A DNA stretch of 64,000 bases from positions 1 to 64,000 of the forward strand of contig JAQGDQ010000837.1 in NCBI GenBank assembly GCA_030141605.1, written 5' to 3'. The notes under the pieces are model-generated. The model made no database searches and was not told the DNA's origin. It was given only the letters and a program-made list of their open reading frames with translations. How positions within the stretch are numbered: the stretch's first letter is position 1; each line of letters opens with the position of its first letter. The position numbers and the translations under genes are program-made. Source of the DNA: Tubiluchus corallicola. Its lineage: Eukaryota; Animalia; Priapulida. Positions 5,394-62,786 of this stretch are shown in pieces.

Positions 5394-5432
<39 letters not shown>

Positions 5433-23613: not shown

Positions 23614-26600
23614 TCACAATGTTGGAGTGGCTGGTGTCTCTGTGCTGAAGTACGGAGCGGAATCTTGGACTAGAAGCGTGTGGCACACGTCACAAACCTT
23701 TGACGGTCGCTGGTTGGGACCACTCGGAACTGTTTTTGCCGTGCAGTCATTGCAGAATATCCTGCCACAATGACGGCAGTGATGCTAAATATAAAATGCA
23801 AACAGTGATGTAACATTTACATAGTTAGTGGATTTTTTTGTGTAAACAATACTTGTTAATCAGTTCAAGTGATTAAACTAGTTACAATCTCGAAATTACA
23901 GACAGGTATAAAGCTTGCATTAAGTGACTGAAAATGACTGTTTACAGTTTAACACAACCTTGAGTTGAGCGACTGAAAATGACTGTTTACAGTTACGACA
24001 TTACAGTTTAGCACAAACTTTGTGTTAAGTGACTGAAAATGACTGTTTACAGTTACGACATTACAGTTTAGCATAAACCTTGTGTCGAGTAACTGAAAAT
24101 GACTGTTTACAGTTACGACATTACAGTTTAACACAAACTTTGCATCGAGTGACTGAAAATGACTGTTTACAGTTACGACATTACAGTTTAGCACAAACCT
24201 CGCGTTAAGTGACTGAAAATGACTGTTCACAGTTACGACATTACAGTTTAGCACAAACCTTGTGTTAAGTGACTGAAAATGACTGTTTACAGTTACGACA
24301 TTACGGTTTAACACAAACCTTGCATCGAGTAGCTGAAAATGACTGTTTACCGTTACGACATTACAGTTTAGCACAAACTTTGTGTTAAGTGACTGAAAAT
24401 GACTGTTTACAGTTACGACATTACAGTTTAACACAAACCTTGCATTGCGCGACTGAAAATGACTGTTTACAGTTACGACATTACAGTTTAACACAAACCT
24501 TGTGTCAAGTGACTGAAAATGACTGTTTACCGTTACGACATTACAGTTTAACACAAACCTTGCGTCGAGTAACTGAAAATGACTGTTTACAGTTACGACA
24601 TTACAGTTTAACACAAACCTTGTGTCGAGTGACTGAAAATGACTGTTTACCGTTATGACATTACAGTTTAGCACAAACCTTGTGTTAAGTGACTGAAAAT
24701 GACTGTTTACAGTTACGACATTACAGTTTAACACAAACTTTGCATCGAGTGACTGAAAATGACTGTTTACAGTTACGACATTACAGTTTGACACAAACTT
24801 TGCATCGAGTGACTGAAAATGACTGTTTACAGTTACGACATTACAGTTTAGCACAAACCTTGCGTTAAGTGACTGAAAATGACTGTTCACAGTTACGACA
24901 TTACAGTTTAGCACAAACTTTGTGTTAAGTGACTGAAAATGACTGTTTACAGTTACGACATTACGGTTTAACACAAACCTTGCATCGTGTGACTGAAAAT
25001 GACTGTTTACCGTTACGACATTACAGTTTAACACAAACCTTGCGTCGTGTGACTGAAAATGACTGTTTACAGTTACGACATTGCGGTTTAGTACAAACCT
25101 TGCGTCGAGTGACTGAAAATGACTGTTTACAGTTACGACATTACAGTTTAACACAAACCTTGCGTCGAGTGACTGAAAATGACTGTTTACAGTTACGACA
25201 TTACAGTTTAACACAAACCTTGCGTCGAGTGACTGAAAATGACTGTTTACAGTTACGACATTGCGGTTTAGTACAAACCTTGCGTCGAGTGACTGAAAAT
25301 GACTGTTTACAGTTACGACATTACAGTTTAACACAAACCTTGTGTTAAGTGACTGAAAATGACTGTTTACAGTTACGACATTACAGTTTGACACAAACCT
25401 TGCGTCGAGTGACTGAAAATGACTGTTTACAGTTACGACATTACAGTTTAACACAAACCTTGTGTCGTGTGACTGAAAATGACTGTTTACAGTTACGACA
25501 TTACAGTTTAACACAAACCTTGCGTCGAGTGACTGAAAATGACTGTTTACAGTTACGACATTACAGTTTAGTACAAACCTTGCGTCGAGTGACTGAAAAT
25601 GACTGTTTACAGTTACGACATTACAGTTTAACACAAACCTTGTGTCGAGTGACTGAAAATGACTGTTTACAGTTACGACATTACAGTTTAACACAAACCT
25701 TGCGTCGAGTGACTGAAAATGACTGTTTACAGTTACGACATTACAGTTTAACACAAACCTTGCGTCGTGTGACTGAAAATGACTGTTTACAGTTACGACA
25801 CTCCTCAGCATCTTCCTCATGCTCCCAGCGCACCTGCGTGTTCACCTGCCGTATCGACTCCAGCTGCATCTGATAAATAATAAGCTTATTAGGAAAACAG
25901 TCATTAGCCTATAAAATTTGCGAATGACAAGACAATTAAAATCGAAGATCGTTTCAAAATGTGACAAACAATTATAAAATTTTGAAGTTTGTTACAATAA
26001 TACACTCAAAATTTCGTTTTTTGTCAAGAACACTAAGGCGCTATTACACTTTCGCACCGCCTAGCTTTTCCTGGCCTATTGGTTCTTTTCATGCCTGCAG
26101 GCCAGAAAGCAGACCAACAGGGGTAATATACACCATATTCCCATAATATTAGTGCTTTTTACGCTTTATAATTCCAGATTAAAATCATACATTACTTATC
26201 GCCGCCATTAAAAGCTGCAAGTGAATAACCGTGTTTACACCACTAATGCGCAATCGCTCTCGCGCAGTGACGTAGTGGCCCTTAACCTGTATTTTTAGTT
26301 TTTTTGCATAATTTATGATTATTATGGTTGCAGCCACGGGAGTTTGTATCATATTACAGTGTTCCCACATATTAGATTATAAAAGTAAAGGTTTTTTCTT
26401 TATTTCGTAAATGCAATTAAGATGAAAGTGTGTCACGTGCCTTTTAAGCTAGGCCCTGATAATGCATAAACTAGTACGAAATTCGTCACGTGACTACACA
26501 CACAAACAAGATGGCGATACTGTGTAGAACTGTGAATACAGCGTAATTATTGGTAATTATACCTAAATAAATGATTAAATTACAATTAGATTAGCGGAAA

Positions 26601-29203: not shown

Positions 29204-29235
<32 letters not shown>

Positions 29236-29270
29236 GGAACCCAATAATAAATATTATTATTACAATTATT

Positions 29271-29301
<31 letters not shown>

Positions 29302-29374
29302 CCATCATTATCATTAACATTGCCATTACCATTACCATCATTATCATTATCATTACTATTACTGTTATTATTAA

Positions 29375-29407
<33 letters not shown>

Positions 29408-32400
29408 CATTATCATTATCATTACCATTACCATTACCACATTACCATTATCATTATCATTATCATTATCATTATCATTATCATTATCATTATCATTATC
29501 ATTACCATTATCATTATCATTATCATTATCATTATCATTATCATTACCATTACCATTATCATTACCATTACCATTATCACATTATCATTGTCATTGTCAT
29601 TATCATTATCATTATCATTATCATTATCATTATCATTATCATTATCATTATCATTATCATTATCATTATCATTATCATTATCATTATCATTATCATTATC
29701 ATTACCATTACCATTACCATTACCATTATCATTATCATTACCACATTATCATTATCATTATCATTATCATTACCATTACCATTACCATTACCATTACCAT
29801 TACCATTACCATTACCATTACCATTACCATTACCATTACCATTACCATTACCATTACCATTACCATTACCATTACCATTACCATTACCACATTATCATTA
29901 TCATTGTCATTATCATTATCATTACCATTACCATTATCATTATCATTATCATTACCATTACCATTATCATTACTATTACTATTACTATTACTATTACTAT
30001 TACTATTACTATTACTATTACTATTACTATTACTATTACTATTACTGTTACTATTACTATTATCATTAGCATTACTATTATCATTATCATTGCCATTGCC
30101 GTTGCCAATATCATTACCATTATCATTATCATTATTACTATTATTATTATTATTATTTGCAACGAACTGGGAGATTATGATTCAGCTAAACAGGCACCAA
30201 ACACTAGGAAAACAGAAGTGGAAGAGGAAATATGCTTAATGCTCAAAATAAAGAGTTCTAATTATAATACTAACGATTCCTCGGTTGCATTGTGTTGCAA
30301 AGTTGACCTAAGCCCGCCTTTAAAAACGCACAATTATCACTTCTTACAAACGCACAATTATCACTTCTTACAAACGCACAATTATCACTTCTTACAAACG
30401 CACAATTATCACTTCTTACCCGTGTTTGATTCTGTTCCTCTAGTTGCGACTGCAAAGCTTGAATGATCTGCCTGCTCTTCGCCTGGATGTTTTTCTTTGA
30501 CGTTTCGGCTTCGCGTACGTGATGTTCGAGTTCCCCCTTCTGCGTCTGAACTCTTTCCAGCTCAGTTTGAAGACTTGATGTTATGCCTAGATGAACGTTA
30601 ATCATAACTTTTATATACACTGAAACCTCGACTTACGAAAACCCTATTACACGTAACGAAAAAATATTCAGGATACGAAAACGAAAATCAAAAGTGCCGC
30701 TCGACGGCGGTCCTCCCAGAATGCATTTCGTAGCATCACGTGAATGCATTGTTGTGTTCTTATCTCACGTGAATGCATTGTTCTGCTCTTATCTCACGTG
30801 AATGCATTGTTGTGCTCTTATCTCACGTGAACGCATTGTTCTGCTCTTATCCCACGTGAATGCATTGTTGTGCCCTTATCTCACGTGAATGCATTGTTGT
30901 GTTCTTATCTCACGTGAATGCATTGTTGTGCTCTTATCTCACGTGAATGCATTGTTGTGCTCTTATCTCACGTGAATGCATTGTTGTGCTCTTATCTCAC
31001 GCGAATGCATTGTTGTGCTCTTATCTCACGTGAATGCATTGTTGTGTTCTTATCTCACGTGAATGCATTGTTCTGCTCTTATCTCACGTGAATGCATTGT
31101 TGTGTTCTTATCTCACGTGAATGCATTGTTCTGCTCTTATCTCACGTGAATGCATTGTTGTGTTCTTATCTCACGTGAATGCATTGTTCTGCTCTTATCT
31201 CACGTGAATGCATTGTTGTGTTCTTATCTCACGTGAATGCATTGTTGTGCTCTTATCTCACGTGAATGCATTGTTGTGCTCTTATCTCACGTGAATGCAT
31301 TGTTGTGTTCTTATCTCACGTGAATGCATTGTTCTGCTCTTATCTCACGTGAATGCATTGTTGTGTTCTTATCTCACGTGAATGCATTGTTCTGCTCTTA
31401 TCTCACGTGAATGCATTGTTGTGTTCTTATCTCACGTGAATGCATTGTTCTGCTCTTATCTCACGTGAATGCATTGTTGTGTTCTTATCTCACGTGAATG
31501 CATTGTTGTGCTCTTATCTCACGTGAATGCATTGTTGTGTTCTTATCTCACGTGAATGCATTGTTGTGCTCTTATCTCACGTGAATGCATTGTTGTGTTC
31601 TTATCTCACGTGAATGCATTGTTCTGCTCTTATCTCACGTGAATGCATTGTTGTGTTCTTATCTCACGTGAATGCATTGTTCTGCTCTTATCTCACGTGA
31701 ATGCATTGTTGTGCTCTTATCTCACGTGAATGCATTGTTGTGTTCTTATCTCACGTGAATGCATTGTTCTGCTCTTATCTCACGTGAATGCATTGTTGTG
31801 TTCTTATCTCACGTGAATGCCTTGTTCTGCTCTTATCTCACGTGAATGCATTGTTGTGTTCTTATCTCACGTGAATGCATTGTTCTGCTCTTATCTCACG
31901 TGAATGCATTGTTGTGCTCTTATCTCACGTGAACGCATTGTTCTGCTCTTATCTCACGTGAACGTTTTGTTGTGTTCTTACCTCACGTGAATGCATTGTT
32001 GTGTTCTTATCTCAAGTGAATGCATTGTTCTGCTCTTATCTCACGTGAATGCATTGTTGTGTTCTTATCTCACGTGAATGCATTGTTCTGCTCTTATCTC
32101 ACTTGAATGCATTGTTGTGTTCTTATCTCACGTGAATGCATTGTTCTGCTCTTATCTCACTTGAATGCATTGTTGTGTTCTTACCTCACGTGAATGCATT
32201 GTTGTGCTCTTATCTCACGTGAATGCATTGTTCTGCTCTTATCTCACGTGAACGCGTTATTGTGCTCTTATCTCACCTGAATGCAATCAATAACCATGGG
32301 TCTGAGAAAAGCAAGTGCCAGTGGTAGTGTTAAGAAGAAAAGGTTGATGTCGATGGAAACAAAACTTGAAATTATAGCTACATATGAAAGTGGCATGAGT

Positions 32401-35400
32401 TTAAGCACTATCTCAGGGGAGTATGAGCGAAACCTTTCGACGATCGATTATTAATGAACATATATCTTTCAGGTGGGTACAAAATTTACACTTTACACGA
32501 CTGTTTTTCGGGTGGTGGGTGTGGTGGAACGAATTACGCTATTTAATGGGTAAATCTTGTCTCGTAATACGAAAATTCTAAGATACAAAAGCCCCTCCGA
32601 AACGAATTAATTTTGTATCTCTCGATATTTCTGTATAATTAAGATTTCCATGTTCTGTGGTTTGATCAGTTTTTAGCCTTTCCTTTCGTATTTTGGAGGC
32701 CACTCATTTCTTGACACCTCTTACAAGATAACTTGTTTCAACCTTTACTAGTACAATCAACCTCGGGTATAAGGTACTCGCTTATAAGGGACCACCAACA
32801 CTGGTCCCGATTTTTTGTAACGTTTTTCCTATGTAAAAATTTCTGTATATAAGATACTGGGATATAAGAGGCTTTTGCTTAAAAGGGACGATATCTTCAG
32901 GTCCCACGAAATAGAAACTCAGGTAAATTACTTTGCATCTAAGGGACGATATCTTCAGCTCCCACGAAATAGAAACTCAGGTAAATTACTTTGCATCTAA
33001 GGGACGATATCTTCAGGTCCCACGAAAGAGAAACCCAGGTAAATTACTTTGCATCTTAGGGACGATATCTTCAGGTCCCACGAAAGAGAAACCCAGGTAA
33101 ATTACTTTGCATCTAAGGGACGATATCTTCAGGTCCCACGTAATAGAAACTCAGGTAAATTACTTTGCATCTAAGGGACGATATCTTCAGGTCCCACGAA
33201 ATAGAAACTCAGGTAAATTACTTTGCATCTAAGGGATGATATCTTCAGGTCCCACAAAATAGAAACTCAGGTAAATTACTTTGCATCTAAGGGACGATAT
33301 CTTCAGGTCCCACAAAATAGAAACTCAGGTAAATTACTTTGCATCTAAGGGATGATATCTTCAGGTCCCACAAAATAGAAACTTAAGGGACGATATCTTC
33401 AGGTCCCACGTAATAGAAACTCAGGTAAATTACTTTGCATCTAAGGGACCCTACGAATGACCCCATCAAAGCGAAATTGATCGATTTTTAACCTCAATTT
33501 TTCGCAAACTCAGCCTTCGAACAGCTCGGTTTCTGCAGTCACATACATCTCGCATCAGGAGCTTCCTACATACCGTTTGCAATGAATGTGTAGCAATAAT
33601 CCATAAAAATATGTGTACAGAAAAGTACAGGTATACATACACCCTCGGTCTAACTCGACTTCGGCTATAGGGACGGTTTTTTCCGGGTGCCGAGGTGTCT
33701 CTTATATCCGAGGTTGACTGTAATGCTTTTATTAAAGTCATACCTAACTGCTGTCGCAAATTGTCTACTTCTTGGGTCAAATCATCTTCGATGGTGTTCT
33801 TTGCATGTTGCTCGGCCATTACCTGGTCTTTGAGAAACAGAATTTCGCTTCGCAACGTTTCCTCCAGGTGCTCTTTTGCCACTTTCTCCGTTATAATCTC
33901 CTCGTTACGTTTCAGCAAGAGGTACTGTAAGTCCTGCAAGACAGAGATTATCACTCAGGAAAAGCGACGTTGACAAATTAGGCGAAAAATTAAAGGACAA
34001 GGCTTATTAAATGCAAAAATGAAAATGAATATCAGTTTGCTTAAAGGACAAGAAAAGGCCAAGTTAAAGCAAGTCTCACAAAATTTTCGCTAAAGAATTC
34101 TAACGGTTAGAGACAATCTTAAGCGTTTATCATTCTCACGTTAAAAGAATTTCCTGTTTGTTTTCATTTTAAATACTCCCGCGAGACTGTCACGGCGGCG
34201 CCATATTAGATGGCGTCACAGAACCACAACCCAAATCTTTATAGTACACGTGCTCAGAACTCACTGCGACTGTGTTCGAGTGACGTCATGCCACGTGATC
34301 AGTCACATGCTGGCTTTTCAATTGGCGGACTAAATGAAACATGTCTGCGCCAACGTTTACTGCAGCGGTTGAAATATTTTACAAAAAATTGAGTAAATGC
34401 GAAAACGTGAGTACTTTATTCGCTAAAGATTATACTTAGGTGGTATAATTTTTTATTGCGAATTTTCTGAGGCTTACTTTGGTTGGCCATTTTCTTGTCC
34501 TTTAAAATGCTGAGACTTCCCAACAGGTGTGAAAGGCTAGCAAAAACTTCTGCATCGTCTCTGTTTAGTAACATCTGCTACATTTTGCAACTGTCGATAT
34601 TTTCTCCTCTTAGTCTTTAAAATGTTAAAGATCCCCCATATTGCATATTGCATAGTGGATACTGTCATTAGCTGACAAGCCACTGACACAGCAGTGTCTA
34701 GTTTTTCTGCTGGATTAGTGCTGTTTTTGCCTGCCTAGTGTCTACAGTAGATGTACCAGGCATATGATGGTGACGACGACGATGATGATGATGATGATGA
34801 CATTACTGTCTTTTATTATCCTTCAATGGATGTGTAGTTTTACGTCTAAACTTTTATATTACAATGATAATAATTTCTTAAACCAAAACGATACCCAATG
34901 TTAAACTGCAGGTCAAAACAGCCGATGTTAAAAATATTGAAAGGAAACATACTATTTTTTGAAAAATGTGAAAGAATTATCACCACACAAACGGAATTTC
35001 ACGTTTGCACCACTAGTTCTTTGCTGTTACATGCCATTCGCCATTCGCTAGTTAGACTGGCACTTATCTGCATTTCGGAAATGCAATGCACATAAAGCAG
35101 GTGCTGCACTTCTCAATTCGCATGTGTTAGTTTGTGACGAATTACTTGATGAGAAAACTCCCTTTTGTGAACGCGCCATTACAAGCACCCTTTTGTGAAC
35201 GTGCCATTACAAGCACCCTTTTGTGAATGCGCCATTACAAGCACCCTTTTGTGAACGCACCATTACAAGCACCCTTTTGTGAACATGCCATTACAAGCAC
35301 CCTTTTGTGAACGTGCCATTACAAGCACCCTTTTTTGAACGTGCCATTACAAGCACCCTTTTGTGAACGTGCCATTACAAGCACCCTTTTTTGAACGTGC

Positions 35401-50400: not shown

Positions 50401-53400
50401 GTACGCTAAACAAAGCATAAGTTGTCAAGGGAAGCGATATACGTTTTTAAACAGTGTTGTTGTGCATGTTAGGCGATGATAGTTAGGTAATGTGAGGCTT
50501 GGTTGTCAATAGGATAGGTGAACATCGAGAAAACTGATTCTAAGTAGTTTTATTAGCCTCAGACATCTATTTTGGGCATAAATACTGACCTGAAACACAC
50601 CTGGCTGAGCACATCTCAAAGGATTATCTGTCAATGCAATACATCAATTTTGGCGAGCGTTGGAGGATTTGACATGTTAGATCACTTCTAAATATTTCTT
50701 GTTAAAATAGAACGCTTAAATACACGTATATCATAGCTAAGCTAATTGTGATCAGCATCAGTTTTAGGTAAGCAAAGTGGTGAGCATGATTACCCAAGGA
50801 CAAATGAAGGTCATTTCATCTTTTGACAGGAATTTCTCCTTAAAAATAGAATAGACTTGAAGCCAAAGTTTATCAGAGTGTTGTGTCTGGATAGTTGAAA
50901 TTTTCTGCATTAGCGGATTTCACACATGTGACACTGCAGTTACTGAAAGGTTTTTCAATTTTTTCATCAAAAATTGATTTTTAATTTGTCTAATGTAAGC
51001 AAATGCACTAAATGCCTTTCATATATAATTTTGCATGAAAATCCATCGTGTGAGGAGTAGAAACCTACAAAAATTATTAAATATAATGTAATCGCTGCTT
51101 AGTGAGAGCAGTTTTTCATGAACACATGCAAAATGCAGCAAATGCTTCCGGTCCTGATGGAGTTAATTTTCAGCTGTTTTGCTTCAGAGCTCTACAATCT
51201 TAGCTAAATTTTCTTTTTTTCCTACAAGCTATCAGCAGTAGGAACACAGTGTGATACAGACTACCTAGACTGATAGTCCCATCCAACATTATAATACATT
51301 TAAGGTTGCTTATCTATGATATGTATTACGCAATTACTTGTAGTGTGTTAGTAGCACTATTACCCATGTGGTTACTGTTATTATAGTATATTTGCATAGA
51401 GTTTATATCTAAGCGGGCTGCAATACTGCTTATATGCATTAGGCAATTACTTGTAGTGTGTTAGTAGCACTATTACCCATGTGGTTAATGTTAATATAAT
51501 ATATTTGCATAGAGTTTATATCTAAGTGGGCTGCAGTACTGCTTATATGCATTACGCAATTACTTGTAGTGTGTTAGTAGCACTATTACCCATGTGGTTA
51601 ATGTTAATATAATATATTTGTATAGAGTTTATATCTAAGCGGGCTGCAATACTGCTTATATGTATTACGCAACTACTTGTAGTGTGTTAGTAGCACTATT
51701 ACCCATGTGGTTAATGTTAATATAATATATTTGCATAGAGTTTATATCTAGGTGGGCTGGAATACTGCTTATATGCATTACGCAATTACTTGTAGTGTGT
51801 TAGTAGCACTATTACCCATGTGGTTAATGTTAATATAATATATTTGCATAGAGTTTATATCTAAGTGGGCTGCAATACTGCTTATAAGCATTAGGCAATT
51901 ACTTGTGGTGTGTTAGTAGCACTATTACCTATGTGGTTAATGTTAATATAATATATTTGCTGAGTTTATATCTAAGCGGGCTGCAATACCGCTTATATGA
52001 AAGTATAAGTGAACTAGTAATTTTGATGCAATACAATAATATCTCGGTTTGCCGGACGTGGCCAAAATCTGGATCGTTAAAAGTCCCGCCTGCTACGGAC
52101 CACGTTCCGTTGTTTCGCGAGGTGACCGCTAACTGGCAGCCCGTCACTTTGTTCACATCATTACATCAGTGAAACGACACGACAGCGTGTAACGACACGT
52201 GTGTAGGTTGTATGTCAGGAGCGGCCCGTACTAGATATTTTTTGAGACAATTCGGTGATTGATTCTACATTACTGTGAGTCTAATATGCAGCGCCTACAG
52301 TATTAGCTTAGCATCGGTAAATACAGACGATCGGCAAATTCTGACCGACGTTTCTTCCGCCCTGTTAACCAACGTATCACAGTAATTGCACTTGCTTGTT
52401 ATATGGCGCTTATATAAACAACGTTTCAGTAACTGCTTGTAGTGTGTAATAAAATACGTGCTTTTATATGTATACGAAAGGATATGTGTTGTCCCAGGAG
52501 AAATAAGAACTCATAAAATATGGCGGCTTAAGGTACGACTCCATTTCTACTTAATGCGTAATCCGTAATCCATAATGCGTGATCCGTATTCATTCAATTG
52601 TGACCGCCATTGTCCGAAAACGCATCATGCAGCAGTACGTAGAAGGGAAACAGCTGTTGCGCGGCCGATTATAGTTGGTTTCCGGTGACCATTTTCGCTG
52701 TTTCACTTTCTGAAAATTCTGGTTAGGTGAGTTTTGGTCAGTTTAGGACCTACAAACAATAATATTTTTCTATTTGAGTTTTTGAGAGGTGGAAGAATCA
52801 TGAAGTTACGTATTGGGCATCTAACAGCAGTTCTTTCACTAAACGATGATACCTGCCATATTGTTCTCTCCCCTGCAAGATGTTGTGCACCCAAAACTTG
52901 TGCTTTCTTTTCCGTCTAATAGTACAATAATAAACTAATGCTGCAGCTGTAATTATCTAGGTTAAATTTCGACACAGACGTGGTTTCCAGAAATTATTGC
53001 TTGCAATTTTCACGAATAGCGACCAGAAATGGTGGAAAGAGCGCAGGGAGCTTAATACGCATAGTGTTTACGGACACAGAAACAGTTACATGTTACAGAT
53101 CACGCATTACATGTCACAGATCACGCATTACATATCACAAATCACCCATTACGTGCACATGGAGTCACCCCCACAAGTTAACAACGAACCTGCCACCTGT
53201 CGTTGCTGCTCTGGTGATAAGACGCTTTCCAACCGTCGCAAGTCGGCGATCTGTAATCGCTGCGATTCCAAAAACTGGTCGTTGGCAGCTTGCCAAGTTT
53301 GCTTCAAATCCGTGTGGTTCTTCCTCTCTGCTTCCAACAATTTGCACACTGTAAATGCGCCGTTAATTAATAAATGGTTCGGAAGTGGTGCTGACAAACC

Positions 53401-56400
53401 ACTTGCACAGTGGTGGCTAGTTTTTTTACTGGATTACTGCTGTGTTTACAAATCCCGAGATGTCTACAATAAACATAACGGGCATGTGATAATTAATCAA
53501 CAAATGTAACAAGTAAAAGTGACTGATACCATACTGACTCTGAGTAACTCGACTGTAACAAGTAAAAGTGACTGATACCATCATGACTCTGAGTAACTCG
53601 ACTGTAACAAGTAAAAGTGACTGATACCATCATGACTCTGAGTAACTCGACTGTAACAAGTAAAAGTGACTGATACCATACTGACTCTGAGTAACTCGAC
53701 TGTAACAAGTAAAAGTGACTGATACCATCATGACTCTGAGTAACTCGACTGTAACAAGTAAAAGTGACTGATACCATCATGACTCTGAGTAAATTGACTG
53801 TAACAAGTAAAAGTGACTGATACCATCATGACTCTGAGTAACTCGACTGTAACAAGTAAAAGTGACTGATACCATACTGACTCTGAGTAAATTGACTGTA
53901 ACAAGTAAAAGTGACTGATACCATCATGACTCTGAGTAAATTGACTGTAACAAGTAAAAGTGACTGATACCATACTGACTCTGAGTAAATTGACTGTAAC
54001 AAGTAAAAGTGACTGATACCATCATGACTCTGAGTAACTCGACTGTAACAAGTAAAAGTGACTGATACCATACTGACTCTGAGTAAATTGACTGTAACAA
54101 GTAAAAGTGACTGATACCATCATGACTCTGAGTAAATTGACTGTAACAAGTAAAAGTGACTGATACCATACTGACTCTGAGTAAATTGACTGTAACAAGT
54201 AAAAGTGACTGATACCATCATGACTCTGAGTAACTCGACTGTAACAAGTAAAAGTGACTGATACCATACTGACTCTGAGTAAATTGACTGTAACAAGTAA
54301 AAGTGACTGATACCATCATGACTCTGAGTAAATTGACTGTAACAAGTAAAAGTGACTGATACCATACTGACTCTGAGTAAATTGACTGTAACAAGTAAAA
54401 GTGACTGATACCATCATGACTCTGAGTAACTCGACTGTAACAAGTAAAAGTGACTGATACCATACTGACTCTGAGTAAATTGACTGTAACAAGTAAAAGT
54501 GACTGATACCATCATGACTCTGAGTAAATTGACTGTAACAAGTAAAAGTGACTGATACCATACTGACTCTGAGTAAATTGACTGTAACAAGTAAAAGTGA
54601 CTGATACCATCATGACTCTGAGTAACTCGACTGTAACAAGTAAAAGTGACTGATACCATACTGACTCTGAGTAAATTGACTGTAACAAGTAAAAGTGACT
54701 GATACCATACTGACTCTGAGTAAATTGACTGTAACAAGTAAAAATGATTGATACCATCATGCAGTTCACTGCGCAATCGATCATTGTCCTCTTGCAACAC
54801 GGACTTCTGGGTATTAAGCACTGACACGTACATCTCTAGATCACTGCGGGAAGATTTCTCCGCTTGCAAAACATGACTCAACTCTTTCATCTAAAAAATA
54901 AACGACAATTCACCGCTAGGATAGTGAGCACAGAAACAGCCAAATGGTCACGGCATGTGTTTAGTGACTGATGTTATGAATAATGACGAAGCTGATAAGT
55001 GAGTTCGTGAGTGCCTAGGTTCAATACTCAGTCTCGCAGTTTCCTTTGTCATACTGATTCTGGCTATTTACCTTGCAGAGAAAAACTTATATATGTCCAA
55101 ACATGTCTAAAAACACCTCTGACAGTGCAGTGACTCATCTTAGAAGAAGAGTAGGGCTGTAATGATAAACCTTGGTCATGATATGATACATGATACTAAT
55201 TGCATGATACCTGAGGTAATGTTTGTGAGCTTTTTAAAAGAAACTAGAGTGACTTTTTGATAATAAATGCTAAATATATTTTTTCAATAGATAGGTTTGA
55301 CACAACACAGGCAAACTTTGTTGATACATGTATTGTAATAAAAGATATCATGATACATCAATGTATCGTTACAGGTTCAATAATCAGTTACGGGTTCCAG
55401 TCTTTCCACAATTAGCTACGTTAAGTAAGTCTCGTCATTAAATACCCTGCATTCTTGCTTGCAGTGTATCAAACTGTGTATTTATTCATACTCTTGTACA
55501 GTACACACTCAAAAAATGATAAGAATGATAAGAATTAAGATGTAAATTAGTTAAAACATATATGCAAAGGCTAAATTTTTACCGTTACCTTCTCGTTAAT
55601 CGAGGAAGCCTCCGAACTCGTCTGACCGGCGTCCAGTAACGATCTAATGACTCGGCCAGCATCTCCGCTTAACGAAGGCAGAACCTGCAAACGCGTGAGA
55701 TTCAACGCTATGGAAGAACTTCCAAACATTTCACAAAAAAAAAAACAGTTTCAAACAACGATCATCTCTGTTTAAATCATGTTTTAAGAGAGTGCGATGA
55801 TTTACCATAGCTTTGTGATCATTAGTGGTGAACCTCGAACATGCGAATTCAATTCAAACAAGTTTATTTTTGAATTCGAATCTAAACTATAGATTCGAAT
55901 AATTCAGCACTTCAATCACATATGTTCCTGATCATTAAAACGATTGAAACATCATGCAATTAGCATAATTTAGCTGTCATTTCTGCGCACAATTTTTAAA
56001 CAAATTACTAGTCGTTTTATCGCAGAACAAAATCTAGTGATACACATGATCTTTGTAAGACTAATTTTTACTGGTGGTTCGAAAACTTGTTCGAAAATCG
56101 TTCAATCTCAATTCGAATTCGGTTCGAATTCGAAACACTGAAGTTCGGGTCGATTCTAATTCGAAAGTCACAAATTCGATTCGATTCGAATTTGCTTTCT
56201 GGTAGAGAATGCTCACCCCTAATAGACAGTGGCCAATTAGTCTCGACTAACGCAACGACACAACCACGACCTCGAAGCTCATCAAATCCAACTGTAAACA
56301 ATTTCCCTCCGCTTTCTCCGAATAAGAGCAAGTGGAAGGAGATAATTGGTTGAAATCTAGCCTACCTTGTTAGCCGACTCGAGCACATGCACTCTCTCTT

Positions 56401-59400
56401 CCGACTTTTTTAACTTTGCTTTTAGATCACTAATTTCCTCTTCCAGAGGCAAAACAACGGACTTCAGAATTTCCGTATCCTCCTGTGCCTGCGGGAACAC
56501 AACAAATATTAGTAGAACACAAATTAAAGAAAAGAACAAGTCACTTAGCATGTTGGGTTTATTTTAAACTGTTTGCGGTGTGTTAAAGAAAAGGACAAGT
56601 CACTTAGCATGTTGGGTTTATTTCACTTTAATTACTTTAAACTGTTTGTGGTGTGTTAAAGAAAAGGACAAGTCACTTAGCATGTTGGGTTTATTTTCCT
56701 TTAATCACTTAAACTGTTTGTGGTGTGTTAAAGAAAAGGACAAGTCACTTAGCATGTTGGGTTTATTTTAAACTGTTTGTGGTGTGTTAAAGAAAAGGAC
56801 AAGTCACTTAGCATGTTGGGTTTATTTTACTTTAATCACTTTAAACTGTTTGTGGTGTGTTAAAGAAAAGGACAAGTCACTCAGTATGTTGGGTTTATTT
56901 TACTGTAATCACTTAAACAGTTTGTGGTGTGTTAAAGAAAAGGACAAGTCACTTAGCATGTTGGGTTTATTTTACTTTAATCACTTTAAACTGTTTGTGG
57001 TGTGTTAAAGAAAAGAACAAGTCACTTAGCATGTTGGGTTTATTTCACTTTAATCACTTAAACTGTTTGTGGTGTGTTAAAGAAAAGGACAAGTCACTTA
57101 GCATGTTGGGTTTATTTTACTGTAATCACTTAAACTGTTTGTGGTGTGTTAAAGAAAAGGACAAGTCACTTAGCATGTTGGGTTTATTTTCCTTTAATCA
57201 CTTAAACTGTTTGTGGTGTGTTAAAGAAAAGGACAAGTCACTTAGCATGTTGGGTTTATTTTACTTTAATCACTTTAAACTGTTTGTGGTGTATTAAAGA
57301 AAAGGACAAGTCACTTAGCATGTTGGGTTTATTTTACTGTAATCACTTAAACTGTTTGTGGTGTGTTAAAGAAAAGGACAAGTCACTTAGCATGTTGGGT
57401 TTATTTTACAAAAGGAAGACAGGATGACTTTCCGTATACTACCCCGGTTTCAAGTCCGATAAAAAGTATACATTTTAACACAGTTAAAAATGCCAAAGCG
57501 TTTCTGATAATTAAATAATTAGACTAAAAACTTAATTAACGGCGGGCGAGCCCAACTATCGATGACATCACAAACGAACATAATTTTTACCAGCAAAAAT
57601 ATTCCACAAGCGTGTTTGTAAAAGCGAAATTGAAATGAGAGGTACAACACCCGTTTTTTGTGCAATGCATTTCCAAAATGTAGGCGCTAGTGCTCGTCGA
57701 CCTAGCGAATGGCGAAATGCATGTAACAGCAAAGAACTAGTGTGTCTGTGTGCTAATAATTCTTTCACGTAAGTCGTCTGTGAAAAAAGGTATGTTTACT
57801 TTCAATATTTTAAAGAATAGGTTGTTTTGCTCAACAGTTTAAAATAGGGTCCGGTTTTGCTTTAAAGTAAGCAATTATGCACCACAAGCCTTCTGCAAGC
57901 GAAAATATTTATAAATGAAACTCTATTTTCCAGAAATTTTTTCAAATATAAAACCATTATTTCTCCTTATTTGCATTGGTAATGTGATCTTTTGCACATG
58001 CTTGTCAAACACAACTTGTACAAATAAGTTCGTAAACTTATGTTCGTAAGCTTATGTTCGTAAGCTTATGTTCGTAAGCTTGTGTTCGTAAGCTTATGTT
58101 CGTAAACTTACGTTCGTAAACTCGTGTTCGTAACTTATGTTCGTAAACTTATGTTCGTAAACTTATGTTGGTAAACTTATGCTGGTAAACTTATGTGCGT
58201 AAACTTATGCTGGTAAACTTATGTGCGTAAACTTATGTTCGTAAACTTATGTTCGTAAGCTTATGTTCGTAAGCTTATGTTCGTAAGCTTGTGTTCGTAA
58301 GCTGATGTTCGTAAACTTATGTTCGTGACCTTACGTTTGTAAGCTTATGTTCGTAAGCTTATGTTCGTGAGCTTATGTTCATAAACTTACGTTCGTAAGC
58401 TTATGTTCGTAAACTTATGTTCGTAAACTAATGTTCGTAAGCTTATGTTCGTAAGCTTATGTTCGTAAACTTATGTTCGTAAACTTATGTTCGTAAGCTT
58501 ATGTTCGTAAGCTTACGTTCGTAAACTTATGTTCGTAAGCTTGTAAACTTTGCACTGATTTTGATCCACTCTTTAGTTCCTCATGTGTAAAAATGATTTG
58601 ACATGAAACAAAACGACAACTTCGATTTGGCCCAGTTTTAGGGCAGATCTAATAATTACACCAATGATAAAAAGGGAACGTGAATTTCTTTTTATTTCAG
58701 CTTTTCATTAGTTAAATTATTCGTTTAATAAATTAGATTTGAGAAGCTTAAATTTTGAGAAACAAGTTTGCATTTTTATTTCTTAGGCCATGGTGTTTCC
58801 ACTGTGCCAAGCACAGACATGCGCTTTTTCTGTATGATTCACACATGGTAAGAAATTGTAACACTAGCGCACATTTGCAAATCGTTGATTTACCTGTTTG
58901 TCGGCCATATTGCGTCCGCGCGGGAAGCCACGAACTCGCGAGGATCCGCACAGACGTGGACTTCCCCTGTGTGACTCACATGGAAAAAAATTGAAACACT
59001 AGCGCACCTTTGCAAATAAACTTACTGGCTGGGTAGGTATTGGTTGAAATGAACCGCACAAATTCACTCAAAGTACCATATAACCTCAAGGACGGAAAAT
59101 TTAACTCTCTAATTAAATATCAATAAAAAGATGTTCCTGGTTAAGCTTCGGACACCGAAAATATTTCATGGCCACGAGAAATAGGGTGTAACAGTACAGC
59201 GTGTTAAGTGAGAAGTTCCGGCAATAGGAGACAATTGTACACTGAACACAAATAGAGTACAGTCAACCTCGGGTATAAGGTACTCACTTATAAGGGACCA
59301 CTAACACTGGTCCCGATTTTTCCTGTGTAAAAATCTTTGTATATAAGGTACTCGGATATAAGGGACTTCCAGTTATAAGGGACGATATCTTCAGGTCCCA

Positions 59401-62400
59401 CGTAATAGAAATCCAGGTAAATTACCTCGCATATAAGGGATCCTATGATCAAAGCGAAATTGATGATTTTCAGTTTTTCGCAAACTCGGCATTCAAACAG
59501 CTCGGTTTCCATGGTCACATACTTCTTGCATCACTGAAGGAACTTCCTACAAACCATTTGCACTGAATGTGCAGAAATAATTTATAAAAATGTGGGTAAC
59601 AGTACAGGTAGATACACCCTCGGTCTGACTCAACTTCAGCTATAAGAAACATCGGATATAAGGGACGGTTTTTCCGGTCCAGAAGTGTCCCTTATATCCG
59701 AGGTTGACTGTACATATTAAATGGATCTGCCCTATACACTGTTATGGTTTCTCTCATTCTCACGTATAAATAGAGGTGCTCAAGCAATGGATTTTCTAAA
59801 TTTTTATGAAAATTTATGACCACAGTAAATGCCTCCCATGAGTTTCATACGAAACCCTTAACCCTTTCATACCCGTTGTATCCCGTGGGATAGGAAAATA
59901 TTTTCTGCCTTTAAAATTAATAAAATTTTAAAACTGACAGTTATTTGATCTGTTAATAGTTATTTTGATTTAAGCCAATAACAATAGACTAAAAATGGTG
60001 ATAAAATGGCAAACTAAAAAATCTACATAGCATAAAAAACTGCGCAAGGTACAGTACTTTAGAGACGACTTAGTACAGATCAGCATAGCATGCATACTAA
60101 ATGTCTTAAATACTTTAAAAAAATATCAGCTGTTGCAAAATGAAGCACATTTTTTGCTTTTGTTGTATTTTTAAAAAAGTCGCACTTTGTTTTTTTGCAC
60201 ATGACAAAGAATGTTGTGTATCCAACAGGATGCATTGGGAACAAAAGTTCCGAGCCAAAAATTTTTTTCCTTTTAAAAAAATAATTTGGGACTGAAAGGG
60301 TTAACTTCAAAAGAAAGGAGCAAGTACGACGTGAAGAATCCAAGCACATTAAGCTTCCGTTCTAATTCTTACCCGTCTCATACTGTCCTCCAGATTGTCC
60401 GGCTCCGCTGTGCCTCCCGAAGACGGAGATTGTTTGAAAGTTGGCACCTTCTTTAACGTTTTGATGACGCCGGGCAGCACGCTGTCGCTGTCGGAACAAA
60501 AACGTATCTTTCATTAAGAAGATGCTAGGAGTTTTTAAACTAAATTGTGCGTTTTATAACTGTTGTGCAAGCACACACTTGTACGTGCATTCAAATAAAC
60601 AATAATATTAATTGTAAGTTTATGAAAACCAATATAAAATTGGTCCTTGAAATGCGATAACCAAAGAGGTTATGCTGAGTGCGAGCACATGTCTTTAGGT
60701 TGTACTGAAGCATATCGCAAAGCAGCGGCCGACCAGCAAGTGGCACTTGGCAATTGTTAGTATATGTAGTTTGTACTAGAGAGAAAAGAATTATGTAATA
60801 AATGTGAAAAAGGAAAAGCAAGGTACGTCAGTAAGAACAGGATAGCGCTAAAAACAGTTTGGAGAAAGAAGGTCATGGGAGTAGGTTTACATATTATAGT
60901 TTTAGTTTTTTGAGAGGCAATTATGTTTTTATTTTTGCAGGAGTGTAATTAATAATTATAAAATAGTTTGTGTTAATGGAGAGAAATTTTGTATACGTAT
61001 AGTTATAATATTTTTCAAGGAATATGTTATGAAGGGAGTAAGGAGAACAAAAGACAAATACAATTACAGGTTTTTGGAGTCATCAGGAGGAACTTGAGAG
61101 TCGAATTCCGGCTGCTTACTCCTCTAATAAACAATATTCAAATAAACAATTAATATTAATTGAAATCCAATCAATAAATGTTGTTCTATAATGTAAGAAC
61201 ATAATTTACAGAACAGAGATGTTACCGAAAACTGAATTTACAAACAGAGACCGAAATTTATCAAATATAGGAAACCGATACAAGACACGCTGTACAAACG
61301 CTTATTAGTCAGCACTGAACAGACATACCTTTCTTTTTCATGATGTCCGAATAACTTATTCTTGTACTCAGCCAACTCTGCCTGCAGAGATTTGTTCTCT
61401 TCAAATAACTGCTGTCTGTCCATTTTCCGTTGCGCCTCGGATTCTGATATTACCCCTAATAAAGGAGAAACATATTTTGCTTCTAAATACGGATACGTAA
61501 ACAAGTACACTATATGTAAAATAATGCGCAAATTATTACTATTCTTTGCAATGCAAGGCATGGACACACGTAAACTATCACGCCAAGTTGTTTTGCATTT
61601 CACAAGGAAAATTATGAATATGGATAGTGATATTAGGCTATCGGTTCTTATGAGAAATTCATGCGGTTTCTAATGATAAATTTAAATTTGACAAAGTCAA
61701 TATTAATAGAAGAGTATGTAAACTGTGTATCATACAAAAGTAGGTGATAAATTTCACTATATGCCTACGTGCCCATACTTCCAACATGCCGGGGAAGTGT
61801 ATATTAAAGGAAGACAGGATGATTTTTCATATACTACCCCATTTTTAAGTCCGATAAACAGTATACTTTTTAGCACCATCAATATTGCAAAAGCATTTCT
61901 GATTATTAAATAATAGATTAAAAACTTAATTAATGTCGGGCGAGCCCAACTATTGGTGAATAGGAATACGTAGAAAACTTAGCTTGGTAATTGTTAAACA
62001 TTTTCTAAATGGTCACACCAGTTAGCGGTCGGTAAAACATATGTCTTACTACGAATGCTCTGTGTTTTTTTCAAACTTCATGTAATGTTATCCATCTCGT
62101 TTCAAACAACTTACCGTTAAAATGGCTGCGCATGACGGGAATTTAAATTTTACAACATTTATACAGCATTACTGCTCACTCAAGCTCTGCATACAACAAG
62201 ACAGCTTGTAAGTGCTACAAAATTTCAAGACGATTTTTTAAAACTTTACTTATGAAGCGAATTTCACTGTCTGTAAGGAAGCCTACCTTCCATGATGTGT
62301 TGTAAGGAAGCCTACCTTCCATGATGTGTTGTAAGGAAGCCTACCTTCCATGATGTGTTGTAAGGAAGCCTACCTTCCATGATGTGTTGTAAGGAAGCCT

Positions 62401-62786
62401 ACCTTCCATGATGTGTTGTAAGGAAGCCTACCTTCCATGATGTGTTGTAAGGAAGCCTACCTTCCATGATGTGTTGTAAGGAAGCCTACCTTCCATGATG
62501 TGTTGTAAGGAAGCCTACCTTCCATGATGTGTTGTAAGGAAGCCTACCTTCCATGATGTGTTGTAAGGAAGCCTACCTTCCATGATGTGTTGTAAGGAAG
62601 CCTACCTTCCATGATGTGTTGTAAGGAAGCCTACCTTCCATGATGTGTTGTAAGGAAGCCTACCTTCCATGATGTGTTGTAAGGAAGCCTACCTTCCATG
62701 ATGTGTTGTAAGGAAGCCACTTCTTCACGGCATTTTCTACTGACATCAGAGATTTCATCTTCTTTCACCGTTTCCGTGATCTTCAC
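23614..62786 (-). CDS. RABEP1: Rabaptin-5 (Rab GTPase-binding effector protein 1) with C-terminal FYVE domain; 22 coding exons, 5' exons lie beyond the window
   Basis: Hand-spliced GT-AG exons, all phases compatible, total 2658 nt = 885 aa + stop: 62693-62786, 61329-61455, 60373-60487, 56366-56488, 55589-55684, 54755-54890, 53190-53348, 50263-50349, 46333-46412, 45626-45783, 43881-44023, 41417-41538, 39447-39551, 38472-38588, 37553-37651, 37288-37326, 35598-35699, 33744-33933, 30420-30586, 28299-28415, 25759-25869, 23614-23784. Rabaptin motifs: EEVASLQHIM, AQEDTEILKSVVLPLEEEI, AEKSSRSDLEMYVSVLNTQKSVLQED, TWQAANDQFLESQRL, RLVSDMEWEWLQQE, PCDMCANYEAQLQ, SEAVQRDFVKLSQNLQ. FYVE: WEHEED..CRNC..FSVTRRKHHCRHCGRIFC..C..KVCDVC. 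Confidence 0.95.
23921..25800. repeat. 60-bp minisatellite, about 31 copies; unit = 42 nt of RABEP1 exon end + 18 nt of intron start
   Basis: Minus-strand unit TGTCGTAACTGTAAACAGTCATTTTCAGTCACTCGACGCAAG|GTTTGTGTTAAACTGTAA. Confidence 0.97.
26037..26700. mobile_element. Mutator-like MITE
   Basis: About 36-bp TIRs GGCGCTATTACACTTTCGCACCGCCTAGCTTTTCCT and 9-bp TSD GAACACTAA/GAACAGTAA. Confidence 0.85.
26855..27687. mobile_element. Tc1/pogo-type MITE with nested LINE 3' fragment (26955-27295)
   Basis: TIRs CAGCAAACTCCACGTAACTCAAA / TTTGAGTTACGTGGAGATTACTG flanked by TA. Confidence 0.8.
29204..30157. repeat. Compound microsatellite (TAA)n/(CAT)n/(CATTAT)n/(CATTAC)n/(TACTAT)n
   Basis: Seen directly. 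Confidence 0.97.
30324..30419. repeat. 24-bp tandem repeat x4 starting at a RABEP1 donor
   Basis: Minus-strand unit GTAAGAAGTGATAATTGTGCGTTT. Confidence 0.92.
30618..32633 (+). mobile_element. Internally deleted Tigger/pogo transposon carrying a 29-bp satellite
   Basis: TA-flanked degenerate TIRs (CACTGAAACCTCGACTTACGAAA / TTTTGTATCTCTCGATATTTCTG). 32296-32454 encodes MGLRKASASGSVKKKRLMSMETKLEIIATYESGMSLSTISGEYERNLSTI, a CENP-B/Tigger N-terminal HTH-like peptide. Confidence 0.75.
30737..32285. repeat. 29-bp minisatellite, about 53 copies
   Basis: Unit CTTATCTCACGTGAATGCATTGTTGTGCT. Confidence 0.97.
32754..33720. mobile_element. Tc1/pogo-type MITE with internal 58-bp tandem expansion (32883-33449)
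   Basis: TIRs CAATCAACCTCGG / CCGAGGTTGACTG, TA TSD; sister copy 59260-59710 has the unit once. Confidence 0.88.
34045..34501. mobile_element. Palindromic MITE with TTAA TSD and AGG termini (Kolobok-like)
   Basis: TTAA-AGGACAAGAAAAGGCCAA ... TTGGCCATTTTCTTGTCCT-TTAA. Confidence 0.7.
34670..34799 (+). mobile_element. Short retroposon 3' end with (GAT)n tail; related inverted copy 10826-10973
   Basis: Shared GCTGACAAGCCACTG...TTTT.GCTGGATTA...CATATGATG. Confidence 0.5.
35160..35579. repeat. 28-bp minisatellite, about 15 copies, starting 18 nt into an intron
   Basis: Unit CCCTTTTGTGAACGTGCCATTACAAGCA. Confidence 0.95.
36720..36839 (+). rRNA. 5S rRNA-like sequence (SINE head or pseudogene copy)
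   Basis: CTACGGCCAAATCACGTTGAAAACACCGGTTCTCGTCTGATCACCGAAGCTAAGCAAC...GTTAGTACTTGGATGGGTAACCGCCTAGGAATACCAGGTGCTGTAGGCTT; full length with A/C boxes and several transitions from the consensus. Confidence 0.85.
36720..37200 (+). mobile_element. 5S rRNA-derived SINE (SINE3-type) with probable RTE-derived body
   Basis: Full 5S head 36720-36839 with no oligo-T terminator, continuing into a 360-bp GC-rich body that ends in TAACTAACT. Confidence 0.7.
38028..38476. repeat. Degenerate 11-12 bp repeat built from a donor-like motif
   Basis: Minus strand reiterates CCAGGTAAAAA / CGGGTGAAAA beginning at the exon 38472 donor CAG|GTAAAAACACGGGTGAGAA. Confidence 0.85.
38743..39422. mobile_element. Harbinger-like MITE containing a 29-bp satellite (38863-39281, about 14 copies)
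   Basis: Termini GACACGTTCAGACTAGCGAGTTTTCT / AGAAAACTCTCTAGTGTGAACGCACC; unit CAGTGAGTTACTGTCTAGTGTGAACGCCT. Confidence 0.7.
39918..40378. mobile_element. hAT-like MITE; internal sequence shared with about 35850-36180, 44200-44378, 52130-52350
   Basis: TIRs CAGGGATGAGAAT / ATTCTCATCCCTG in a TTATTATT context; AATTGTCTCAAAAA and/or CCAACTAGCGGTCAGCT-like blocks recur at the other loci. Confidence 0.65.
40665..41457. repeat. 51-bp minisatellite, about 15 copies; unit = about 40 nt RABEP1 exon end + donor
   Basis: Minus strand ATTGGTTAGTGACATGGAGTGGGAGTGGCTACAACAAGAG|GTAAGAGTCTA, decaying away from the exon. Confidence 0.93.
41970..42179. repeat. About 42-bp tandem repeat x5
   Basis: CAACATAATATGTGTTATATTCATACATCTACTGATGAAATT. 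Confidence 0.9.
42376..42880. repeat. 24-bp minisatellite, about 21 copies
   Basis: GTGTACTGAACAGAATAACGCAAC. Confidence 0.96.
44376..45369. repeat. 63-bp minisatellite made of a MITE terminus, about 16 copies
   Basis: Minus-strand unit begins CAGTAAGTCCTCGCTTAACGACACCCCGTTTAGCGACG; a single-copy version lies at about 42990-43059. Confidence 0.92.
46572..48258. repeat. 36-bp minisatellite, about 46 copies
   Basis: GCTTAACCGAATGATTGGCCATGCTACTAAAGCGAA. Confidence 0.96.
51320..51999. repeat. 113-bp tandem repeat x6
   Basis: GCAA(T/C)TACTTG recurs at 51330, 51443, 51556, 51669, 51782, 51895. Confidence 0.95.
53505..54761. repeat. 49-bp minisatellite, about 26 copies, containing a RABEP1 donor
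   Basis: Minus strand CATGATG|GTATCAGTCACTTTTACTTGTTACAGTCGAGTTACTCAGAGT. Confidence 0.97.
56524..57409. repeat. About 58-73 bp minisatellite, about 13 copies, ending 35 nt from an acceptor
   Basis: TTAAAGAAAAGGACAAGTCACTTAGCATGTTGGGTTTATTT...AAACTGTTTGTGGTGTG. Confidence 0.94.
58028..58550. repeat. 14-bp minisatellite, about 37 copies
   Basis: GTTCGTAA(G/A)CTTAT. Confidence 0.95.
59260..59710. mobile_element. Tc1/pogo-type MITE (unexpanded sister of 32754-33720)
   Basis: TA-CAGTCAACCTCGG ... CCGAGGTTGACTG-TA. Confidence 0.88.
59862..60300. mobile_element. piggyBac-like MITE
   Basis: TTAA-CCCTTTCA ... TGAAAGGG-TTAA. Confidence 0.85.
62272..62719. repeat. Perfect 29-bp minisatellite, 15 copies; unit = 25 nt RABEP1 exon end + GTAG
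   Basis: Minus strand GCTTCCTTACAACACATCATGGAAG|GTAG. Confidence 0.97.

What the first reader, a model, noticed from the sequence alone, without database searches (positions are those of the whole stretch)
23921..62719. Splice-donor echo arrays: six unrelated tandem arrays, each anchored on a RABEP1 5' splice site
Seen: at 6 of 21 visible introns (donors after 25759, 30420, 38472, 41417, 54755, 62693) a tandem array begins exactly at the exon-intron junction and its unit contains that intron's own GT donor, mostly with exon-end sequence. Units are 60, 24, 11-12, 51, 49 and 29 bp with no shared sequence, so these are independent events, not one dispersed satellite. No RABEP1 array spans an acceptor. 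Ages differ, from perfect (62.3 kb) to heavily decayed (38 kb), implying a recurrent process. Two more repeats start within about 18-35 nt of donors (35160-35579, 53090-53155). Inference: either a mutational process targeting 5' splice sites (e.g. pausing or R-loop-linked slippage, or copying from short junction-spanning RNA/DNA circles), or retained U1-binding decoy arrays that tune splicing, NMD or premature polyadenylation. It also implies strong first-donor selection by the spliceosome. I do not know a named system for this, and novelty is not verified.
Basis: partly seen in the sequence, partly recalled or inferred. Interest (0 to 1): 0.9.

Follow-up and report, generated by a model that had tools for sequence, protein, structure and literature searches.

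The report
Donor-side "mirage" minisatellites in invertebrate RABEP1
In an unidentified invertebrate's RABEP1-like gene, six of 21 introns begin with head-to-tail copies of their own splice-donor region, a repeat type already known as "mirages" from lancelets and a few human genes, and here likely a tolerated by-product of local DNA duplication rather than a regulatory device.

Summary
A 22-exon minus-strand model gives an open 885-aa RABEP1/FYVE frame. An unbiased scan finds 3-30 copies of the junction at 6 of 21 donors and at 0 of 21 acceptors. Only the 24-bp array starts exactly at the junction; the other five start 7-42 nt inside the exon. Against 18 minisatellites in the gene, 0.65 should hold a donor by chance: about 9-fold excess, P = 2e-5, but the window was chosen post hoc. 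The 6:0 donor bias is marginal (P = 0.03). Read-derived contigs hold the two arrays tested, also in a second sample. The system has a name: 'mirage' minisatellites of amphioxus, and the human F7-type donor VNTRs, where the first donor is used. This scan has already noted mirages 215 times in at least 20 other genomes. Decoy-function tests were negative: donor motifs are not specially conserved and array introns are not richer in poly(A) signals. What stays open is why exon edges are favoured. Splice-site use was not tested.

The parts
23614..62786 (-). RABEP1-like gene (Rabaptin, Rab5-bind, C-terminal FYVE): 22 exons and 21 introns in the window; the 5' end lies beyond 64000
   Evidence: 885-aa open frame, 40-45% identical to six full-length homologues
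62272..62718 (-). 29-bp array, 15.4 perfect copies; unit = last 26 exon nt + first 3 intron nt of donor 62693; second donor would shift the frame
   Evidence: in read contigs of X1-X3 and as three tandem units in X4
53505..54761 (-). 49-bp array, 25.7 copies; 7 exon + 42 intron nt of donor 54755; 24 of 24 copies keep the same donor 9-mer; without the array this intron is about 200 nt
   Evidence: unit at raised depth in X1 and X4
40677..41457 (-). 51-bp array, about 15 copies; 40 exon + 11 intron nt of donor 41417; 12 of 14 copies keep GT, 0 of 14 keep the authentic 9-mer, 4 of 14 keep the -1 G
38033..38479 (-). decayed 11-12-bp array echoing donor 38472 (probable; low complexity; upper end set by eye)
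   Evidence: (19 copies of a junction 16-mer)
30320..30419 (-). 24-bp array, 4.2 copies; starts at intron +1 of donor 30420, no exon sequence; the 3 copies are weak donors, in frame and stop-free
23921..25800 (-). 60-bp array, 31 copies; 42 exon + 18 intron nt of donor 25759 (inside the FYVE domain); fills 1.8 of the 2.0-kb last intron; 21 of 30 copies keep the donor 9-mer; identity falls with distance from the exon
35160..35579 (-). 28-bp array starting 18 nt after donor 35598; does not hold the donor
53086..53159 (-). 21-bp array starting 30 nt after donor 53190; does not hold the donor
56525..57409 (-). 72/59-bp array ending about 37 nt before acceptor 56488, clear of the AG: the only near-acceptor array
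   Evidence: lower end set by eye
12654..13502 (.). control: 60-bp x 14 array upstream of the neighbouring gene, at no modelled splice junction, with a 9-nt partial extra unit

Best explanation
The six arrays are 'mirage' minisatellites: tandem copies of each intron's own donor region that likely arose as local DNA duplications and are likely tolerated because splicing would use the first donor. Steps: (1) Shown: this gene carries 18 unrelated minisatellites built from local sequence, some inside dispersed repeats whose other copy holds the unit once, so a general duplicate-and-amplify process acts here. (2) Shown: five of the six donor units hold contiguous exon and intron sequence with variable ends, so the template was unspliced. 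(3) Inferred: birth or growth of arrays is favoured at exon edges on both sides, for example through breaks or pausing in a transcribed gene, or unequal exchange anchored on the conserved exon between diverged alleles. (4) Inferred: selection then filters by side. A donor duplication leaves the first copy as an intact exon end and upstream-first donor choice skips the rest, whereas an acceptor duplication puts new AG sites ahead of the real one and is more often lost. (5) The extra donors then drift and are not kept as functional decoys.
For: Defining mirage feature met at five junctions, a donor-only variant at the sixth. Excess over chance 9.3-fold (95% 3.4-20), 6.5-11-fold in four other countings; removing acceptor seeds alone lifts the expectation only from 0.65 to 0.68, so a filter alone is not enough and some edge bias is needed. 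The 58- and 66-bp units occur once in related repeats elsewhere in the window. 18 arrays in 39 kb of gene against 1 in the other 25 kb (P = 0.001). Donor position within the unit is compatible with uniform (KS p = 0.25, n = 6). Second-donor use would give a stop or frameshift in 4 of 5 arrays tested, yet the first-donor frame is open and conserved. Intronic donor positions +1..+6 vary as much as other columns (4 alleles in 18 columns against 45 in 127, p = 0.26). First-donor scanning was shown with 50 F7 constructs (PMC1557585); amphioxus mirages occur on both sides and give normal mRNA (PMC3087553, PMC3902484).
Against: One gene, picked because it looked striking; P = 2e-5 is 1 in about 46,000 in a scan of some 250,000 windows. 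Zero acceptor arrays is not itself a depletion (0.62 expected, P(0) = 0.53), so purging of acceptor arrays is not shown. 6:0 gives only P = 0.03, 5:0 P = 0.06. Acceptor-side mirages persist in amphioxus BflGb6. Human 6-16 and CBS also use the next two pseudo-sites, so first-donor use need not be complete. Which donor this organism uses is untested. Nothing here separates a two-sided edge bias from a donor-specific one.
Confidence: 0.5

Rival explanations
1. Donor-specific mutational hot spot: polymerase pausing, U1 engagement or R-loops at 5' splice sites of germline-transcribed genes cause nicks or breaks whose repair duplicates a few tens of bases across the donor. The arrays are still neutral mirages, but the asymmetry comes from mutation, not from selection.
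For: 6 donors against 0 acceptors, or 8 against 1 with arrays within 40 nt (P = 0.03-0.04). Units straddle the donor with variable ends. Arrays are denser in the gene than outside. In human cells, breaks are reported at splice sites on release of paused polymerase II (passage in PMC7463922 citing Dellino 2019), and break density at splice sites depends on expression (passages in PMC9645720). The five human examples listed in PMC1557585 are all donor-side.
Against: Small numbers. Selection gives the same asymmetry. Acceptor-side mirages exist in amphioxus. The break data are from human somatic cell lines, and the passages I read do not separate 5' from 3' sites.
Confidence: 0.22
2. Chance plus ascertainment: arrays fall at random in a minisatellite-rich genome, and this gene is the extreme of many windows read.
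For: The window was selected for this pattern. About a third of the gene span (13.4 of 39 kb) is minisatellite. The strictest count (4 arrays) gives only P = 2.5e-3. The two donors of the neighbouring gene have no echo (0 of 2).
Against: P = 2e-5 for six, and few windows can be this dense in both arrays and exons. Mirages recur in four amphioxus gene sets.
Confidence: 0.15
3. Selected U1-binding decoy arrays that suppress premature polyadenylation, strengthen exon definition or feed NMD-coupled control of RABEP1.
For: 82 of 84 scored copies keep GT and 58 of 84 keep the full donor 9-mer. Arrays of this size would bind U1 (inference). Human tandem repeats can alter splicing (passages in PMC10078293). 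Both arrays tested are present in a second sample.
Against: GT retention matches the general homogeneity of the arrays (p = 0.26). Positions -3..-1 vary more than other columns (9 alleles in 9 columns, p = 0.009, post hoc, 7 of the 9 from the 51-bp array), which points to erosion. Poly(A) hexamer density is equal (1.62 against 1.61 per kb). Array introns are if anything shorter once collapsed (median 604 against 1127 nt, p = 0.08). Donor strength does not differ (U1 match 7.67 against 7.63).
Confidence: 0.08
4. RNA-templated or rolling-circle origin from splicing intermediates (lariat, cleaved 5' exon, small circles).
For: The 24-bp array starts exactly at intron +1, as a lariat-derived template would.
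Against: Five of six units cross the junction unspliced, with 7-42 exon nt and 3-42 intron nt; no shared end point. Every array sits at its own locus, and no copy of a donor unit was found elsewhere in the window.
Confidence: 0.04

Closest known systems
Amphioxus 'mirage' minisatellites (Adh3, troponin C, globins BflGb6/BflGb9, PGBD5). Seen: passages of PMC3087553 (abstract, section 16, legends) and one passage of PMC3902484. The original paper (Canestro et al. 2002, NAR) was not held.
   Same: Tandem units that span an exon-intron boundary and repeat the splice signal; unrelated units of varied length (Adh3 10-72 bp; here 11-60 bp); edge copies diverge from the homogenised interior; mechanism of origin stated as unclear.
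   Different: Different animal (best named hits are a priapulid and decapods; taxon not settled). All six are donor-side, whereas amphioxus has both sides. Length instability and normal splicing were shown in amphioxus and are not shown here.
Human donor-spanning VNTRs: F7 intron 7 (37 bp), CBS intron 13, 6-16 intron 2, lamin B2, PDGF intron 4. Seen: abstract, Introduction and Discussion of PMC1557585.
   Same: First unit spans the junction; identical pseudo-donors run into the intron; similar unit sizes and copy numbers.
   Different: One array per gene in those examples, against six in one gene here. Donor choice was measured there and is inferred here.
Intron gain by tandem duplication of splice signals (Rogers model, as applied to mirages in PMC3087553 Fig. 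7 legend and text)
   Same: Same raw material: duplicated junction sequence.
   Different: No new intron or exon is needed: the first-donor frame aligns with homologues across the array junctions.

Membership tests
mirage minisatellite | Tandem repeat whose unit spans an exon-intron boundary | tested here: met
   Five arrays hold 7-42 exon nt plus the intron start; the 24-bp array holds the GT but no exon base
mirage minisatellite | Splice signal repeated in the copies | tested here: met
   82 of 84 scored copies in five arrays keep GT; 58 of 84 keep the donor 9-mer
mirage minisatellite | Locus-specific units of minisatellite size, not one dispersed family | tested here: met
   Units 11-60 bp; 13 of 15 pairs unrelated, two at p = 0.025-0.03; no donor unit found elsewhere in the window. 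The rest of the genome was not available.
mirage minisatellite | Length variation between alleles or cells | tested here: inconclusive
   Second sample X4 holds both arrays tested, with lower depth ratios than X1, but at depth 2-9, and contig depth is not copy number
mirage minisatellite | mRNA spliced normally in spite of the copies | not testable with these tools
   Inferred only from the open, conserved first-donor frame
F7-type donor VNTR | Only the most upstream donor is used | not testable with these tools
   Needs spliced reads; second-donor use would break the frame or add a stop in 4 of 5 arrays
Functional U1 decoy (telescripting) array | Donor motif conserved above the rest of the unit | tested here: not met
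   +1..+6: 4 alleles in 18 columns against 45 in 127 (p = 0.26); -3..-1 more variable; three arrays, low power
Functional U1 decoy (telescripting) array | Sited in long introns or introns rich in poly(A) signals | tested here: not met
   1.62 against 1.61 hexamers per kb; collapsed length median 604 against 1127 nt (6 against 15 introns)

The most novel reading that the evidence does not exclude
5' splice sites of germline-transcribed genes are hot spots for small tandem duplications in this lineage, through damage coupled to transcription and splicing. Donor mirages would then be a fossil record of that process and a main engine of intron lengthening: two introns here are about 175 and 200 nt without their arrays and 2.0 and 1.4 kb with them.
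Probability: 0.22. Interest if true: 0.65.

Novelty: new member of a known kind. Interest (0 to 1): 0.3.

Why it matters
The repeat type is known, but its origin is called unclear in the amphioxus literature (PMC3087553), and my searches (open-licence PMC and bioRxiv only) returned no genome-wide test of donor or acceptor enrichment. Six arrays in one gene, all donor-side, is a dense example. With a genome and RNA it would be a good natural test of upstream-first donor choice outside mammals (58 copies identical to the real donor 9-mer) and of whether splicing leaves a mutational mark on DNA. As it stands it is one more case among many.

Tried and rejected
No whole genome is held, so the genome-wide permutation could not be run. 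No RNA holder listed. X5 and X6 matched only dispersed repeats in 54690-56520 and were not used further. Assembly artefact rejected: a 59-nt single-unit contig of the 29-bp array has depth 2931 against 216 for the exon contig in X1, and the 49-bp unit stands at 6401 against 166; X1-X3 may be the source sample, and depth is no copy number. X4 (other sample and study) also holds both; my read laying stretches covered only the first 1-3 units of two of the six arrays. Three exon candidates read by eye (61123-61068, 58966-58894, 52915-52853) did not fit the frame and were dropped from the model; adding them changes P to 5e-5. Searches had off-by-one coordinates; donor scores of copies are wrong and were redone. 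The 12654-13502 array looked like a seventh case (its unit holds a donor-like and an acceptor-like motif) but lies upstream of the neighbouring gene's modelled start codon and a TATA-like motif; an unseen 5' UTR intron is not excluded. GC preference does not explain the excess. Microhomology could not be read, because partial end units of 0-45 nt cannot be told from remnants. The earthworm metallothionein paper (PMC12783039, passages) was not relevant. Two papers listed were seen as listings only. Two look-ups of earlier findings for a genome-wide donor/acceptor test returned nothing, as did the look-up for this genome.

Full report
Gene. The finding lies in a minus-strand gene. I fixed exon borders by reading frame and by tblastn with eight homologues. 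The final model has 22 exons from 62786 to 23614, 21 GT-AG introns and an 885-aa frame with a single terminal stop; it aligns with six full-length RABEP1-like proteins at 40-45% identity. Single exons hit Pfam Rabaptin, Rab5-bind and FYVE. The best named hits are Priapulus and decapod crustaceans; the taxon is not settled. The model rests on frame and homology, not on RNA.

Observation. TRF lists the six arrays with the stated periods. To avoid picking by eye, I scanned all 21 donors and 21 acceptors for copies of a junction 16-mer in the adjacent intron (up to 3 mismatches). Six donors had 14, 25, 13, 19, 3 and 30 copies; the other 36 junctions had 0 or 1. Unit anatomy, exon + intron nt: 42+18 (25759), 0+24 (30420), about 8+4 (38472, decayed), 40+11 (41417), 7+42 (54755), 26+3 (62693). 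So only one array begins exactly at the junction. Of 15 unit pairs, two reach p = 0.025-0.03 and 13 show nothing.

Chance. The gene span holds 18 non-redundant minisatellites (period 10 or more, 3 or more copies; microsatellites and 2-copy repeats left out; two ends set by eye), 13.4 kb in all. With every array collapsed to one unit and seeds placed anywhere not wholly exonic, 0.65 should hold a donor GT and 0.62 an acceptor AG. Six hold a donor (P = 2.2e-5; 9.3-fold, 95% 3.4-20) and none an acceptor (P = 0.53, no depletion). Dropping the decayed array gives 5 of 17, P = 2.7e-4; dropping also the exon-free array gives 4 of 16, P = 2.5e-3; adding three doubtful exons gives P = 4.6e-5. The side bias is weak: 6:0 P = 0.03, 5:0 P = 0.06, 8:1 within 40 nt P = 0.04. 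The window was chosen for this pattern, so these P values overstate the case, and no genome was available to repeat the test. The two donors of the neighbouring gene show no echo.

Reality in reads. Two arrays were laid on read-derived contigs, first 1-3 units only. In X1 the 29-bp unit forms a 59-nt contig at depth 2931 against 216 for the exon contig, and the 49-bp unit stands at 6401 against 166. X1-X3 are one sample, perhaps the source, and the tool warns that depth is no copy number. X4, from another sample and study, differs from the window at 9 of about 270 and 4 of about 300 letters in two contigs that cover intron. It holds the 49-bp unit at depth 49 against 3-9, and three tandem 29-bp units in one contig of depth 2.2. 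An artefact is unlikely. Length variation is hinted at but not shown.

How it likely arose. Arrays are born from any local sequence here: the 58- and 66-bp units each occur once in a related dispersed repeat elsewhere in the window, and a 60-bp array lies upstream of the neighbouring gene. Arrays are denser inside the gene than outside (18 in 39 kb against 1 in 25 kb, P = 0.001, ignoring autocorrelation). Five donor units carry unspliced exon-intron sequence, and the donor's place in the unit fits a uniform spread (p = 0.25, n = 6), which argues for DNA-level duplication without a fixed cut. The 60-bp array loses identity with distance from the exon (rho -0.64, p = 1.5e-4); the 51- and 49-bp arrays do not. 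A selective filter alone cannot give the excess (0.68 expected after removing acceptor seeds), so if the excess is general some bias at exon edges is needed. Candidates are breaks at splice sites in transcribed genes (human data: passage in PMC7463922 citing Dellino 2019, which I did not read; passages in PMC9645720) or unequal exchange anchored on conserved exons (my inference). One gene cannot tell a two-sided bias plus purging from a donor-specific bias.

Why tolerated. Second-donor use would add a stop within 16 or 10 nt (60- and 51-bp arrays) or shift the frame (49 and 29 bp); only the 24-bp array is in frame and stop-free, and its copies are weak donors. The gene is intact on first donors. 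In human F7, identical downstream donors are functional but unused because the most upstream one is chosen; lamin B2 and PDGF behave alike, while 6-16 and CBS leak to two more sites (PMC1557585: abstract, Introduction, Discussion). That this holds here is inferred.

Decoy function. 82 of 84 scored copies keep GT and 58 keep the donor 9-mer (the decayed array is not in this count, and one more 29-bp copy was unscored). In the three variable arrays, columns +1..+6 carry 4 extra alleles in 18 columns against 45 in 127 other non-CpG columns (p = 0.26), so the donor is not specially kept. Columns -3..-1 carry 9 in 9 (p = 0.009, post hoc, 7 from the 51-bp array, where 0 of 14 copies reach the real donor's score), which hints at erosion of decoys. 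Array introns have the same poly(A)-hexamer density and tend to be shorter when collapsed; their donors are of ordinary strength. These tests are small, but none favours function. The U1 consensus and hexamers used are recalled motifs, and the weight matrix was built from this gene's own 21 donors.

Known systems. Tandem repeats spanning exon-intron boundaries were named 'mirages' in amphioxus Adh3 and found in globins, troponin C and PGBD5, on both sides of exons, with units of 10-160 bp, unstable length, normal mRNA and an unclear origin (passages of PMC3087553 and PMC3902484). The original Adh3 paper was not held; my memory that most Adh3 minisatellites are mirages is recall. The scan holds 215 notes with the term from at least 20 genomes, some with 5-7 junctions in one gene; these are unchecked leads, not support. 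Searches found no genome-wide enrichment study in the held library; subscription papers and all supplements were not seen.

Verdict. Real, above chance within this gene, and a new member of a known kind. The open question is the cause of the exon-edge and donor bias, which needs the genome and RNA. Interest 0.3; 0.65 if a donor-specific germline hot spot were shown (probability about 0.2).

Noticed in passing
window 36720-36838 (+): Full-length 5S rRNA match (RF00001, 100.7 bits) inside a RABEP1 intron, antisense to the gene and followed by about 400 nt of non-rRNA sequence; may be a 5S-derived SINE or a lone 5S copy.
   Followed up: partly
window 12508-8315 (-): Three-exon gene for a 169-aa protein with a signal-peptide-like start; no Pfam family for exons 2 and 3; TATA-like motif near 12600.
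   Followed up: partly
window 4743-4490 (-): Short single-exon frame with a RILP homology 1 domain (PF09744, E = 1e-28) that appears to stop soon after the domain; possibly a truncated or retroposed RILPL/JIP-like copy.
   Followed up: partly
window about 120-1170 against 6420-7400, and about 2000-2460, 5400-6700 against 19950-22560: By eye: a large inverted duplication that includes the 200-bp two-copy repeats at 589-985 and 6756-7152, and multi-kb direct duplications between the 2-7 kb and 20-22.5 kb regions.
   Followed up: no
window 32883-33449 against 59256-59721; 44377-45370 against 42992-43058: Minisatellites born inside dispersed, MITE-like repeats whose other copy in the window holds the unit once.
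   Followed up: partly
window 53505-54761: The 49-bp array has a higher-order pattern: two unit types alternate, with a four-unit period over copies 3-19.
   Followed up: no
window 61123-61068, 58966-58894, 52915-52853 (-): Three AG...GT exon-like stretches not needed for the open frame; the 63-nt one at 52915-52853 is frame-preserving and could be a cassette exon.
   Followed up: no
window 55868-56239: Very high-copy dispersed repeat (summed depth about 1e6 against 166-200 in X1), also matched in runs X5 and X6.
   Followed up: no
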